64,000 bases of DNA. It comes from the human T2T-CHM13v2.0 reference genome, Homo sapiens. A program made the position numbers and the translations under genes. How positions within the stretch are numbered: the first letter of the stretch is position 1; every line of letters starts with the position of its first letter. The stretch lies in contig CP086569.2 of NCBI GenBank assembly GCA_009914755.4, positions 672,001 through 736,000 of the forward strand, in the 5' to 3' direction. Shown piece after piece: positions 55,700-57,000 of this stretch. The notes under the pieces were generated by a model. It saw only the letters and a list, made by a program, of their open reading frames with translations. It made no database searches and was not told the DNA's origin.

Positions 55700-56100
55700 A
55701 AACCTAATGCTTTTCTCCAATTTCTTTTTTTTCTTTCCTTCCCGTCCCTTCCCTCCTCTCCCCTTCCCTCCTCTCCCCTCCCCTCCTCTCCCCTCCCCTT
55801 CCCTCCCCTCTCCCCTCCCTTCCCTTCCCCTCCTCTCCTCTCCCTCTCCCCTCCCCTCCCTCTCCCCTCCCCTTCCCCTCTCCCCTCCCCTTCCCCTCTC
55901 CCCTCCCTTCCCCTCCCTTCCCCTCCCTCTCCCCTCCCTTTTCCCCTCCCCTTCCCCTCCCCTCTCCTCCCTTTCCCTGTCCACTCCCCTTCCCTGCCTT
56001 CTCCCCCTCCTTTCCCCTCCTCTCCCCTCCCCTTCCCCTTCCCTTTCCCCTCCCCTTCCCTTCCTTTCCTTTCCTTTCCTTTTTTCTTCTTTTCCTTTTG
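55700..56100. repeat. Polypyrimidine (CCCCT/CCTCT/CCCTT)n tract, ~400 bp
   Basis: Seen directly. Confidence 0.9.
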
Positions 56101-56440
56101 AGACAAGGTCTCACTTTGTCACCCAGGCTGGAATACAGTGGTTTAATCACAGCTCACTACAGCCCCTGCCTCCCAGGCTCAAACAATGCTCCCACCCCAG
56201 GCTCCTGAGTGTCTGGGACCACAGGCGTGCATCACCTTGCCTGGTCAGCATGGCGAGACGTCAACTCTAAAAAATACAAAAGTTAGTGGGGCATGGTGGT
56301 GCATGCGTGTGGTCCCAGCTGTTCGAGAGGCTGAGGCAGGAGGATTGCTTAAGCCTGGGAGGCAGAGGTTGCAGTGACTCGAGATCACGCCACTGCCCTC
56401 CAGCCTTGGCAACAGAGCAAGGTCTCATCTCAAAAAATAT
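56100..56440. mobile_element. Inverted pair of Alu right-arm fragments (minus copy at 56100-56247, plus copy at 56250-56440)
   Basis: GAGACAAGGTCTCACTTTGTCACCCAGGCTGGAATACAGTGG...GCCTGGTC is followed immediately by AGCATGGCGAGACGTCAACTCTAAAAAATACAAAAGTTAGTGGGGCATGGTGGTGCATGCGTGTGGTCCCAGCTGTTCGAGAGGCTGAGGCAGGAGGATTGCTTAAGCC...CAAGGTCTCATCTCAAAAAA. Confidence 0.8.
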
Positions 56441-56720
56441 ATATATATATATATAAAGAAATATATATATATATATATAAAATATATACATATATTTAAA
56501 TTATATATAATGTATACATATATTTAAATTATATATAATGTATACATATATTTAAATTATATATAATGTATACATATATTTAAATTATATATAATGTATA
56601 CATATATTTAAATTATATATAATGTATACATATATTTAAATTATATATAATGTATACATATATTTATATATAATGTATACATATATTTAAATTATATATA
56701 ATATACATATTTGGATAGTT
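56440..56720. repeat. 30-bp AT-rich minisatellite (ATATATTTAAATTATATATAATGTATACAT) x ~7, preceded by (TA)n
   Basis: Seen directly. Confidence 0.9.
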
Positions 56721-56734
56721 TTATTTATTTATTT

Positions 56735-57000
56735 ATTGGAGTCTTGCTCTGTCCCCCAGGCTGGAGTGCAGTGACATGATCTCTGCTCACTGCAACCTCC
56801 GCCTTCCAGGCTCAAGCGATCCTCCTGCCTAAGCCTCCCGAGTAGCTGGGATTACAGGCGCCCGCCACCACCAGCTACTGGGGAGGCTGAGGCAGGAGGA
56901 TCGCTTGACCCTCGGAGGCGGAGGTTGCAGTGAAGCGAGATTGCACCACTGCACTCCAGCCTGGGGGGCAGAGCCAGACTCTGTCTAAAAAAAAAAAAGA
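56735..57000. mobile_element. Near-perfect palindrome made of two Alu right-arm fragments (minus copy at 56735-56860, plus copy at 56862-57000) joined at CGCCCGCCACCACC|AGCTACTGGGGAGG
   Basis: GAGTCTTGCTCTGTCCCCCAGGCTGGAGTGCAGTGACATGATCTCTGCTCACTGCAACCTCCGCC... is the reverse complement of ...GGCGGAGGTTGCAGTGAAGCGAGATTGCACCACTGCACTCCAGCCTGGGGGGCAGAGCCAGACTC. Confidence 0.85.

What the first reader, a model, noticed from the sequence alone, without database searches (positions are those of the whole stretch)
56100..57000. Two Alu-derived palindromes flanking a 30-bp AT minisatellite
At 56100-56440 and again at 56735-57000, two Alu right-arm fragments face each other with almost no spacer. The second pair is a near-perfect ~125-bp-arm palindrome joined at ...CGCCCGCCACCACC|AGCTACTGGGGAGG.... 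Inverted Alu pairs separated by under 20 bp are strongly selected against in the human genome because they form hairpins and cause double-strand breaks. Finding two such pairs bracketing a (30-bp)x7 AT array suggests a break/repair hotspot. One possible origin is fold-back replication.
Basis: partly seen in the sequence, partly recalled or inferred. Interest (0 to 1): 0.55.

Follow-up and report, generated by a model that had tools for sequence, protein, structure and literature searches.

The report
Two old, diverged inverted Alu pairs
Two pairs of Alu fragments do face each other head-to-head on either side of an AT-rich tandem array, but each pair is made of unrelated, old, diverged Alu copies, so this is an ordinary relic of past insertion and deletion, not a fresh fold-back palindrome.

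Summary
The layout is real. It reads T-tail–Alu(−) 56100-56244 | Alu(+) 56239-56431–A-tail, then a 28-bp ×10 AT array (56437-56710), then T-tail–Alu(−) 56738-56871 | Alu(+) 56871-56986–A-tail.

"Near-perfect" is wrong. Pair 2 has 112-131-nt arms that are 82-86% complementary around a 21-nt loop.

The arms are no more alike than random Alu pairs from the same window. They share only common variants, so they are not copies of each other. A fold-back of an already aged Alu is rejected, and for pair 1 (J-like versus S-like) any fold-back is rejected.

Both junctions are non-classical. There is no room for a target-site duplication and no remainder of either Alu beyond the tails. Abutting head-to-head neighbours are expected about 0.1 times per window (P(≥2)=0.004). 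One break-and-join event therefore happened at each centre.

I favour later deletion of the facing 5' ends, with 8 nt of microhomology at junction 1. Insertion-coupled head-to-head joining ("dual priming") is the main rival. Published yeast data put repeats this diverged about 60-1000-fold below identical ones in fragility, so present-day fragility is probably low. Orthologue and population tests could not be run.

The parts
55733..56098 (-). Polypurine tract on the minus strand (polypyrimidine on the plus strand), about 365 bp and rich in GGGGA/GGAA. It runs straight into A1's tail. It is probably a microsatellite that grew out of the tail, and it is of the kind prone to H-DNA or G-quadruplex formation.
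   Evidence: TRF periods 5, 10 and 104; sequence. That it derives from the tail is my inference.
56100..56244 (-). A1: an Alu right arm, positions 138-282, AluJ-like or possibly a free right monomer. It is 76% identical to AluJo, and its T-tail lies directly to its left.
   Evidence: BLAST against typed Alu consensus sequences; alignment; 7 J-type versus 4 S-type diagnostic sites; it shares the most variants with the other J-type Alus in the window.
56239..56246 (.). Junction 1. The 8-nt overlap GCCTGGTC reads both as antisense Alu 143-136 (the end of A1) and as sense Alu 88-95 (the start of A2), so it is microhomology at the join.
   Evidence: Read. The BLAST hits of A1 and A2 overlap at 56239-56244.
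56239..56437 (+). A2: Alu positions 88-282 (end of the left arm, the linker and the right arm), S-like with some J-type states, 80.5% identical to AluSx. The body ends at 56431 and the A6 tail is 56432-56437.
   Evidence: sequence.
56437..56710 (.). AT-rich minisatellite. A (TA)n lead-in is followed by the 28-bp unit ATATATTTAAATTATATATAATGTATAC, 10.1 copies at 90% match. It folds no better than shuffled sequence of the same composition.
   Evidence: TRF; six exact units; DNA fold z −1.99; its own inverted symmetry is 78% (I5).
56719..56737 (-). A3's tail, read on the plus strand as the T-rich run (TTTA)n.
   Evidence: Sequence; alignment.
56738..56871 (-). A3: an Alu right arm, positions 144-277, AluS-like, 91% identical to AluSx.
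56850..56870 (.). The 21-nt loop of pair 2 (GATTACAGGCGCCCGCCACCA). This is the stretch of A3, Alu positions about 144-165, that has no partner in A4. Junction 2 lies at 56872|56873 with 1-2 nt of microhomology.
   Evidence: the repeat finder I1; predicted hairpin; sequence.
56871..56986 (+). A4: an Alu right arm, positions 166-281, AluS-like, 89% identical to AluSx.
56987..57019 (+). A4's A-rich tail. Unique sequence starts at 57020, with no Alu remainder and no target-site duplication.
   Evidence: Sequence; no Alu hit between 56986 and 58074; k-mer search of the flanks.

Best explanation
The locus is a decayed Alu cluster around an AT-rich tract.

Four unrelated Alu copies inserted at different times by ordinary L1-driven retrotransposition. 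A1 is J-like and the oldest. A2 is an older S type. A3 and A4 are S types about 9-11% diverged from consensus. They formed two head-to-head pairs with tails pointing outward, and the inner tails (A2, A3) point into the AT tract (inferred).

Later, one deletion per pair removed the two facing 5' ends and whatever lay between them. The ends were rejoined by end joining, with 8 nt of microhomology at junction 1 and 1-2 nt at junction 2. A hairpin or cruciform formed by the then-younger, more similar pair may have provoked the break (the 'centre-break' type of palindrome revision), but that step is not shown.

What remains are short quasi-palindromes: arms of 112-146 nt, 66-86% complementary, with loops of 21 and 48 nt. 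They would fold if the DNA became single-stranded. On published yeast data, repeats this diverged are far less break-prone than identical inverted Alus, so these are most likely stable relics.

Shown: the anatomy, the divergence, that the arms are unrelated, and that both junctions are non-classical. Inferred: the order of events, deletion as opposed to insertion-coupled joining, and any role for a hairpin.
For: - Anatomy and orientation of the four pieces.
- The arms are unrelated copies.
  - Identity is at the 82nd (pair 2) and 3rd (pair 1) percentile of 1176 right-arm pairs in the window.
  - Against age-matched pairs, 25.5% are at least as similar as A3/A4.
  - Shared variants are only common ones.
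  - A1 leans J-type (7 J versus 4 S diagnostic sites); A2, A3 and A4 lean S-type.
- The junctions are non-classical.
  - The Alu pieces abut or overlap, which leaves no room for the A-rich target-site duplication that a later classical insertion would leave at its 5' end.
  - No left-arm remainder lies within 1 kb on either side.
  - No flanking duplication was found.
- The layout is not chance: 0.098 abutting head-to-head neighbours are expected and P(≥2)=0.004.
- The microhomology GCCTGGTC at junction 1 fits a microhomology-mediated deletion.
- Deletion is favoured over a special insertion mode.
  - Of 5,936 recent germline Alu insertions, only 1 (0.02%) carried an inversion and 83.8% had a target-site duplication (PMC12016303).
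  - New Alu insertions are typically full length, yet 29% of reference Alus are under 275 bp (PMC3215922), so much truncation is post-insertional.
- Low present fragility.
  - With a 12-bp spacer, gross-rearrangement rates in yeast fall about 15-, 58- and 1087-fold at 94, 86 and 75% identity, and reach background at 65% (PMC10164571).
  - A 42-bp central spacer abolished inverted-repeat-induced repair in HeLa cells (PMC3300023).
- Not an assembly or fold-back read artefact: such artefacts give near-identical arms, and these differ at 14-34% of positions.
Against: - No orthologous or population sequence could be obtained, so the ancestral state (full-length pairs with a spacer) has not been observed.
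- The truncation points are not significantly symmetric. The offsets are 22 and about 50 Alu positions, and the combined p is about 0.2 by my arithmetic. A hairpin-centred break therefore has no direct support over any other deletion.
- A deletion that leaves a 21-nt loop would have produced a still-young palindrome, then perhaps about 95% identical. That palindrome had to survive, which the hairpin-instability idea does not naturally predict.
- Pair 2 folds better than 96% of artificial head-to-head constructs built from other Alus. This hints that its arms may be somewhat more related than 'unrelated' implies.
- All three Alu(−) arms of this kind in the window end at Alu positions 132-144. 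Random deletion does not predict that.
- Two such deletions within 900 bp is itself a coincidence that needs the instability argument.
Confidence: 0.5

Rival explanations
1. Insertion-coupled head-to-head joining. Each pair was born in one event when both DNA strands at a break in the AT-rich tract primed reverse transcription on the poly(A) tails of two Alu RNAs. The two incomplete cDNAs were then joined 5' end to 5' end. This is the 'dual priming' postulated by Meyer et al. 2010. A variant has two synchronous target-primed events bridging a deletion. Another variant has one Alu inserting with loss of target DNA that included the 5' end of its neighbour.
For: - The architecture is exactly the one predicted: a T-tail on the left, an A-tail on the right, and both elements 5'-truncated and meeting at an internal junction (model in PMC2837659).
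- L1 bridges with a poly(T) at one end and a poly(A) at the other, made from two retrotransposition events, are reported in tumours (bioRxiv 10.1101/2024.08.27.596794).
- A3 and A4 are of the same broad subfamily and similar divergence, 9-11%.
- The inner tails of both pairs sit in an AT tract rich in TTTAAA-type sites, which could offer L1 endonuclease sites on both strands (my inference).
- The microhomology at junction 1 is as the model expects.
Against: - No target-site duplication flanks either pair.
- Inverted structures are seen in only 1 of 5,936 recent germline Alu insertions, so two in 900 bp is very improbable a priori.
- A1 (J-like, about 24% diverged) and A2 (S-like, about 19.5% diverged) belong to different subfamilies. 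This fits simultaneous birth poorly, although the difference in divergence is only about 1 SD.
- Dual priming has never been demonstrated for Alu.
Confidence: 0.22
2. Fold-back origin. One Alu with its tail was copied back on itself, either by replication or repair fold-back at a break, or by snap-back self-priming of the cDNA during insertion. That would create a perfect palindrome that has since diverged.
For: - Pair 2's arms cover the same Alu segment, and both end in tails.
- They share two less common variants: 33G and 103G, found in 7 and 5 of 49 right arms aligned from the window.
- Their hairpin energy is in the best 3.5-4% of control constructs.
- If the fold-back happened at or just after insertion, today's 82-86% identity is what independent decay would leave.
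Against: - A fold-back of an already aged Alu is excluded. Only 3 of 11 and 13 differences are shared, and all are recurrent elsewhere in the window.
- Pair 1 is excluded outright. Its arms differ in subfamily, in extent (Alu positions 138 versus 88) and at 27-34% of positions.
- The tails differ in length and motif: a 19-nt (TTTA)n against 33 nt of A-rich sequence.
- The symmetry stops at the tails and does not extend into the flanks (I1).
Confidence: 0.07
3. The site is an active fragile or rearrangement hotspot today. The two hairpin-forming pairs and the AT array, next to Z-DNA-type and polypurine tracts, cause recurrent breaks and structural variation in present populations.
For: - Strong predicted single-strand hairpins: z −23 and −9, and −251.6 kcal/mol for the 906-nt block.
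- Pair 2 sits at the edge of the range reported as unstable in yeast. From my memory of the Lobachev 2000 abstract, 86% identity with a spacer under 20 bp still stimulated recombination; the paper is not held here.
- In long single-stranded regions, inverted Alus of ≥75% identity still interact (PMC10164571).
- Non-B-prone motifs cluster at 54960-57019.
- The window holds other rearranged Alu junctions.
Against: - The arms are a third to a half the length of the 320-bp Alus used in the assays.
- Divergence of 14-34% implies fragility about 60-1000-fold lower in duplex DNA.
- Pair 1's 48-nt loop is in the range that abolished the effect in human cells.
- At about 10-25% divergence from consensus, the arms have probably sat next to each other for tens of millions of years.
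- The AT array folds no better than shuffled sequence.
Confidence: 0.1
4. RNA-level role. If the region is transcribed, for example within an intron or a 3' UTR, each pair forms an inverted-Alu double-stranded RNA hairpin. Such hairpins are known substrates for A-to-I editing and nuclear retention.
For: As RNA, pair 2 folds at −215.5 kcal/mol, z −22.9, with three perfect 20-21-bp stems. That inverted Alus in transcripts behave this way is established knowledge and was not tested here.
Against: - There is no evidence that the region is transcribed.
- No exon or known RNA family was recognised in the window.
- This would be a by-product of the layout, not an explanation of its origin.
Confidence: 0.08

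Closest known systems
Closely spaced inverted Alu repeats, also called Alu quasi-palindromes or 'at-risk motifs' (Lobachev et al. 2000; Stenger et al. 2001; Cook et al. 2011)
   Same: Two Alu-derived sequences in opposite orientation with a very short spacer, able to form a hairpin or cruciform. They belong to the class that is depleted in the human genome (inverted:direct ratio about 0.07 at ≤24 bp).
   Different: That literature deals with full-length (275-325 bp) and fairly similar Alus. Here the arms are 112-146 nt, both elements lack their 5' halves, identity is 66-86%, and pair 1's complementary arms are 48 nt apart.
Centre-break palindrome revision and central deletion of palindromes (Cunningham et al. 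2003; Kato et al. 2008, as cited in PMC3300023)
   Same: Sequence at the axis of symmetry has been lost, the ends were rejoined by end joining, and a short asymmetric centre remains (a 21-nt or 48-nt loop).
   Different: That mechanism was shown for long, near-perfect palindromes in mouse and human cells. Here the precursor is hypothetical, and the truncation points are not significantly symmetric.
Twin priming and 'dual priming' variants of target-primed reverse transcription (Ostertag & Kazazian 2001; Meyer et al. 2010)
   Same: An internal junction where orientation flips, with 5'-truncated pieces. Dual priming predicts a poly(T) at one end and a poly(A) at the other, as seen in both pairs.
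   Different: Twin priming gives one tail and non-overlapping parts of one RNA. Here both arms cover the same Alu positions and each has its own tail. Dual priming predicts a duplication flanking the pair, and none was found. It is also undocumented for Alu.
Palindromic AT-rich repeats (PATRRs) and AT-rich minisatellite fragile sites of the FRA16B/FRA10B type (from my own knowledge)
   Same: An AT-rich tandem or self-complementary tract a few hundred bp long, flanked by less AT-rich sequence.
   Different: The array's own inverted symmetry is only 78%, and it folds no better than shuffled sequence (z −2). Its 274 bp and 28-bp unit are far from the near-perfect PATRR palindromes or the kilobase-scale expansions at fragile sites.
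Inverted-repeat Alu (IRAlu) double-stranded RNA elements
   Same: If transcribed, pair 2 would form a duplex of about 110-130 bp of the same kind.
   Different: Typical IRAlus are two full-length Alus hundreds of bp apart within a transcript. No transcription is shown here.

Membership tests
Closely spaced inverted Alu pair ('at-risk' quasi-palindrome) | Two Alu-derived sequences in opposite orientation | tested here: met
   BLAST to Alu consensus sequences gives (−)(+) at 56100-56244/56239-56421 and at 56738-56871/56871-56986. Alignment.
Closely spaced inverted Alu pair ('at-risk' quasi-palindrome) | Spacer between the complementary arms under about 20-24 bp | tested here: inconclusive
   Pair 2 has 21 nt, which is borderline. 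Pair 1 has 48 nt, which does not meet it. The Alu fragments themselves abut with 0 nt between them in both pairs.
Closely spaced inverted Alu pair ('at-risk' quasi-palindrome) | High arm similarity (≥86% was still active in yeast assays) | tested here: not met
   Pair 2 is 82%, 83.6% or 85.7%. Pair 1 is 73%, 65.9% or 68.8%. Fold-reduction figures come from PMC10164571.
Closely spaced inverted Alu pair ('at-risk' quasi-palindrome) | Full-length arms of about 300 bp, as in the assays and genome censuses | tested here: not met
   The arms are 112-146 nt. All four elements lack Alu positions 1-87 or more.
Closely spaced inverted Alu pair ('at-risk' quasi-palindrome) | Measured fragility or structural variation at the site | not testable with these tools
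   No population, orthologue or experimental data could be reached.
Fold-back (palindromic) duplication | The arms are copies of each other and share the private mutations that predate the event | tested here: not met
   A3 and A4 share 3 of their 11 and 13 differences, and all three recur in other Alus of the window. The weighted score is at the 87th percentile. A1 and A2 are of different subfamilies.
Fold-back (palindromic) duplication | The symmetry extends beyond the repeat into the flanking unique DNA | tested here: not met
   The inverted match ends at the tails, 56719 and 57001 (I1). The flanks are unrelated.
Twin-priming 5' inversion | The inverted and direct segments are different, adjacent parts of one RNA, with a single poly(A) and flanking target-site duplications | tested here: not met
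   Both arms cover the same Alu positions (166-277 in pair 2; 138-282 in pair 1). Each has its own tail, and no duplication was found.
Dual priming (Meyer et al. 2010, hypothetical) | A poly(T) at the 5' end and a poly(A) at the 3' end of the composite, with both elements 5'-truncated at an internal junction | tested here: met
   T-rich tails lie at 56719-56737 and directly left of 56100. A-tails lie at 56432-56437 and 56987-57019. Truncation points are at Alu positions 138, 88, 144 and 166.
Dual priming (Meyer et al. 2010, hypothetical) | Target-site duplication flanking the whole composite | tested here: not met
   The k-mer comparison of all flanks found only two 7-mers, and neither is at the element boundaries. 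Age and array growth could have erased a duplication.
Dual priming (Meyer et al. 2010, hypothetical) | Both elements of the same age | tested here: inconclusive
   Pair 2 is 91% versus 89% identical to AluSx, which is compatible. Pair 1 is 76% versus 80.5% and of different subfamilies, but the difference is within about 1 SD.
Palindromic AT-rich repeat (PATRR) | A near-perfect AT-rich palindrome of several hundred bp | tested here: not met
   The best internal inverted match is 114-nt arms at 78% (I5). DNA fold z is −1.99, with 5 of 200 shuffles folding as well. It is a tandem array of 28-bp units.
SVA composite retrotransposon (considered because a (CCCTY)n tract precedes an antisense Alu) | Hexamer repeat, then an Alu-like region, then a GC-rich VNTR, then SINE-R, then poly(A) | tested here: not met
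   There is no GC-rich VNTR or SINE-R. The array is AT-rich, and A1 is 24% diverged, which is too old for SVA. The SVA structure is recalled from my own knowledge.

The most novel reading that the evidence does not exclude
Both pairs, and the similar composite at 1832-2014, were created in single retrotransposition events in which both strands of a break in an AT-rich tract primed on Alu poly(A) tails and the two cDNAs were joined head-to-head. If so, they would be germline Alu examples of the 'dual priming' mechanism, which has only been postulated for L1. It would also mean that AT-rich tracts can seed short-spacer Alu palindromes at birth, and that the primate germline tolerated these for tens of millions of years.
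Probability: 0.15. Interest if true: 0.4.

Novelty: already known. Interest (0 to 1): 0.15.

Why it matters
As it stands it matters little. It is one more decayed inverted Alu cluster in a window that is 25% Alu and packed with tandem arrays.

Its modest value is as a worked example of three points:
- A zero-spacer inverted Alu junction need not be a dangerous palindrome. Arm length, divergence and the true loop size have to be measured first.
- Comparing the arms with the other Alus of the same window cleanly separates 'copies of each other' from 'two unrelated Alus'.
- The layout 'T-tail–Alu(−)|Alu(+)–A-tail with both 5' ends missing' is a recognisable signature. A genome-wide census of it, with orthologue dating, could settle whether such pairs arise by centre deletion or at insertion.

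Tried and rejected
- **Orthologous or independent copies of the locus.** None of these attempts found anything, so the ancestral state and population variation could not be examined.
  - Exact-product look-ups of three flanking or junction ORFs.
  - A homology search with the 117-aa ORF at 57106-57456.
  - Exact DNA scans of metagenome and bacterial or archaeal genome contigs with two unique-flank patterns and the junction-2 pattern.
- **Rfam.** The whole window gave no family at gathering threshold.
- **Locus identification by coding exons.** No convincing exon was found among non-Alu ORFs, only L1-derived and repeat-derived frames.
- **Segmental duplication of one ancestral pair.** Rejected: A1/A3 are 72% identical and A2/A4 are 78%, no better than random pairs, and neither junction recurs in the window.
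- **One large palindromic duplication centred on the AT array (A1↔A4, A2↔A3).** Rejected: identities are 71% and 81%, at the 8th and 51st percentiles; the truncation points differ; and the 906-nt fold prefers the three local hairpins.
- **Nested classical insertion of one Alu into the other.** Rejected: no remainder of the recipient Alu follows the tail, and there is no target-site duplication.
- **Twin priming.** Rejected: the same Alu segment is present in both arms and there are two tails.
- **SVA.** Rejected: no SINE-R and no GC-rich VNTR.
- **PATRR.** Rejected.
- **Assembly or read fold-back artefact.** Rejected because the arms are diverged.
- **Symmetry of the truncation points as evidence for a hairpin-tip break.** Not significant (p about 0.2, my arithmetic).
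- **Papers not held.** Lobachev 2000 and Cunningham 2003 are not in the library. What I state from them rests on memory or on citing papers.
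Full report
**What is there**

The interval contains four Alu pieces and an AT-rich tandem array (sequence; BLAST against typed AluY, AluSx and AluJo consensus sequences; alignment). The consensus sequences were typed from my memory. They match other Alus in the window at up to 94%, so they are adequate for this purpose.

From left to right:
- A polypyrimidine tract at 55733-56098 that runs into a T-run.
- A1, 56100-56244, minus strand, Alu positions 138-282, 76% identical to AluJo.
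- A2, 56239-56431, plus strand, positions 88-282, 80.5% identical to AluSx, with an A6 tail.
- (TA)n followed by a 28-bp unit in 10.1 copies at 90% match, 56437-56710 (TRF). Six units are exact.
- A (TTTA)n T-rich tail at 56719-56737.
- A3, 56738-56871, minus strand, positions 144-277, 91% identical to AluSx.
- A4, 56871-56986, plus strand, positions 166-281, 89% identical to AluSx.
- An A-rich tail to 57019, then unique sequence.

Each pair therefore has the form 'T-tail–Alu(−) | Alu(+)–A-tail'. The 5' ends face each other and all four elements lack their 5' parts.

**Checking the observation**

The inverted symmetry is real but weaker than described.
- Pair 2 is 82% complementary over 131 nt with 21 nt between the arms. 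It is 83.6% in a gapped self-alignment and 85.7% (16 mismatches in 112) over the shared Alu core. Eight of the 16 mismatches cluster at 56771-56790 opposite 56930-56949, which leaves three perfect 20-21-bp stems.
- Pair 1 is 73%, 65.9% or 68.8% complementary. A2 keeps left-arm and linker sequence, so its complementary arms are 48 nt apart.
- As single-stranded DNA, pair 2 folds at −120.9 kcal/mol (z −23.3) and pair 1 at −86.5 kcal/mol (z −9.1). The AT array folds no better than shuffled sequence (z −2.0).
- A perfect palindrome of the A4 arm would give −168.5 kcal/mol, against −119.8 observed for the core construct.
- The whole 906-nt block folds into the three local hairpins, not into long-range A1:A4 or A2:A3 pairings.

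The array period is 28 bp, not 30.

**Is it more than chance?**

The complementarity itself is not special. Any two Alus are complementary when inverted.
- Among all 1176 pairs of the 49 Alu right arms in this window, A3/A4 identity is at the 82nd percentile and A1/A2 is at the 3rd.
- Among age-matched Alus, 25.5% of pairs are at least as similar as A3/A4.
- Pair 2's hairpin energy is somewhat better than typical, in the best 3.5-4% of artificial head-to-head constructs. I record this as a weak, unexplained signal.

What is not chance is the abutment. With the window's Alu density, random placement gives 0.098 head-to-head neighbours within 5 bp, and P(≥2)=0.004. Some process joined these 5' ends.

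**Are the arms copies of each other?**

No.
- A3 and A4 differ from the window's majority consensus at 11 and 13 sites and share 3 of those differences. Each shared variant also occurs in 5-20 of the 49 aligned right arms. A rarity-weighted sharing score is at the 87th percentile.
- A1 groups with the AluJ-type elements of the window and has 7 J-type versus 4 S-type diagnostic states. A2, A3 and A4 are S-leaning.
- The two pairs are not duplicates of one another. A1/A3 are 72% identical and A2/A4 are 78%. Neither junction recurs elsewhere in the window.

A fold-back that copied an already aged Alu is therefore excluded for pair 2, and any fold-back is excluded for pair 1. A fold-back at the very moment of insertion cannot be excluded for pair 2, because independent decay since then would leave about the identity observed.

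An assembly or read fold-back artefact is also excluded, since those give near-identical arms.

**The junctions are non-classical**

A later Alu inserting by ordinary target-primed reverse transcription leaves an A-rich target-site duplication at its 5' end. If it lands inside another Alu, the rest of that Alu reappears after its tail.

Here the Alu pieces abut at junction 2 (56872|56873, 1-2 nt of shared bases). At junction 1 they overlap by the 8 nt GCCTGGTC (56239-56246). No Alu sequence lies between 54586 and 56100 or between 56986 and 58074. A k-mer comparison of all flanks and junctions found no duplication.

Twin priming is excluded because both arms cover the same Alu positions and each has its own tail.

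The junction-1 overlap is informative. GCCNGGC is a quasi-palindromic Alu motif. It therefore occurs as a direct repeat between inverted Alus, here as antisense positions 143-136 and sense positions 88-95, and it offers ready microhomology.

**Most likely history**

Two families of explanation remain.

(a) Later deletion. Each pair began as two independently inserted head-to-head Alus. One deletion removed both 5' ends and the spacer, and the ends were rejoined by end joining. A hairpin or cruciform in the then-younger pair may have provoked the break. This would be the centre-break type of palindrome revision, as cited in PMC3300023.

(b) Insertion-coupled joining. This means the 'dual priming' postulated by Meyer et al. 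(PMC2837659), two synchronous priming events bridging a gap as seen for L1 in tumours (bioRxiv 10.1101/2024.08.27.596794), or an insertion with loss of target DNA.

The architecture fits (b) exactly. However, among 5,936 recent germline Alu insertions only one carried an inversion and 83.8% had target-site duplications (PMC12016303). Two such events within 900 bp is very improbable a priori. No flanking duplication is present, and A1 and A2 are of different subfamilies.

New Alu insertions are typically full length, yet 29% of reference Alus are under 275 bp (PMC3215922), so post-insertional truncation is common.

I therefore favour (a), at about 0.5 against about 0.22 for (b). The hairpin-trigger step has no direct support. 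The truncation offsets (22 and about 50 Alu positions) are not significantly symmetric (combined p about 0.2, my arithmetic).

The AT tract probably served as a hub of L1 endonuclease sites, and the tails of A2 and A3 may have fed its growth. Both points are my inference.

**How it works now**

Published yeast assays used 320-bp Alus with a 12-bp spacer. They show gross-rearrangement rates falling about 15-, 58- and 1087-fold at 94, 86 and 75% identity, and reaching background at 65% (PMC10164571). A 42-bp central spacer abolished the inverted-repeat effect in HeLa cells (PMC3300023).

Pair 2 (82-86% identity, 21-nt loop, arms about 40% of full length) sits at the weak edge of the risky range. 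Pair 1 (66-73% identity, 48-nt loop) lies outside it.

The inverted:direct ratio is 0.073-0.076 at ≤24 bp. Cook et al. caution that part of it may reflect an insertion preference for direct pairs.

The arms' 9-25% divergence from consensus implies that they have probably coexisted for tens of millions of years. The best reading is that these are stable relics. In long single-stranded regions, repeats of ≥75% identity can still interact, so some residual risk in replication stress or tumours is not excluded.

If transcribed, pair 2 would form a double-stranded RNA hairpin of about 110-130 bp (−215.5 kcal/mol). There is no evidence of transcription.

**Comparison with known classes and novelty**

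This is a member of the well-described class of closely spaced inverted Alu repeats. It fails the features that make that class dangerous: full-length arms and high identity, and for pair 1 the short spacer as well.
- It is not a PATRR.
- It is not an SVA.
- It is not a twin-priming product.
- It is not a fold-back duplication.

Nothing here lies outside known kinds, so I rate it already known and of low interest (0.15).

The most novel reading not excluded is that these are germline Alu products of dual priming in an AT-rich tract (probability about 0.15, interest 0.4 if true).

**Limits**

No orthologous primate sequence or population data could be reached. The order of events and the ancestral state are therefore inferred. 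Lobachev 2000 and Cunningham 2003 were not available.

Noticed in passing
window 25135-25468 and 26279-26612: A non-Alu inverted repeat with 334-nt arms, 97% complementary, separated by 810 nt. It is much younger and more similar than either Alu pair, and is a better candidate for a recent inverted duplication or an inversion substrate.
   Followed up: partly
window 53140-53972: A tandem array with a 133-bp period, 6.3 copies at 89% match, made of the Alu left monomer plus linker. BLAST hits to Alu positions 2-190 repeat every 133 bp, and the array ends in a full Alu at 53786-54063. It is an Alu-derived minisatellite.
   Followed up: partly
window 1832-2014 and 2819-3001: The same architecture as the finding. 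A T-tail and an Alu(−) right arm (positions 132-282) abut a 37-nt inverted Alu(+) piece (positions 200-236), followed by an AT-rich array (2016-2662). The composite occurs twice about 987 bp apart, so it was duplicated.
   Followed up: partly
window 13312-13564: An inverted Alu junction of the opposite polarity. Alu(+) positions 78-165 are followed after 15 nt by Alu(−) positions 151-5. Both pieces lack their 3' ends and tails, so this cannot come from retrotransposition alone and must be a rearrangement.
   Followed up: no
A1 at 56244, A3 at 56871, and the element at 1832-1979: The three independent Alu(−) arms that abut an inverted Alu piece all end at Alu positions 132-144, the boundary between the linker and the right monomer. 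Their partners start at scattered positions (88, 166, 200). The rough post-hoc chance is about 0.006 (my arithmetic). None of the origin models I considered explains this.
   Followed up: partly
window 54960-57019: A cluster of sequence types prone to non-B DNA. It holds a roughly 620-bp (TG/CG)-rich tract (54960-55581), a 365-bp polypurine·polypyrimidine tract with many GGGG runs on the minus strand (55733-56098), the two Alu hairpins, the AT array and a 33-nt A-tract.
   Followed up: no
whole window: The window is unusually dense in tandem arrays. Examples are 9086-9368 (32 bp ×8.8, 99%), 10731-12064 (1.3 kb AT-rich, GC about 14%), 20650-21442 (158 bp ×5), 22825-23802 (170 bp ×5.8, GC-rich, 95%), 30013-31033 (AT-rich), 32217-32652 ((CTTT)n), 44733-45031 (48 bp ×6), 48232-49461 (CA-rich) and 62620-63707 (42 bp ×26). 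Alu makes up 25% of the bases, and no exon or Rfam family was recognised. This resembles a subtelomeric or VNTR-rich region, but the locus was not identified.
   Followed up: no
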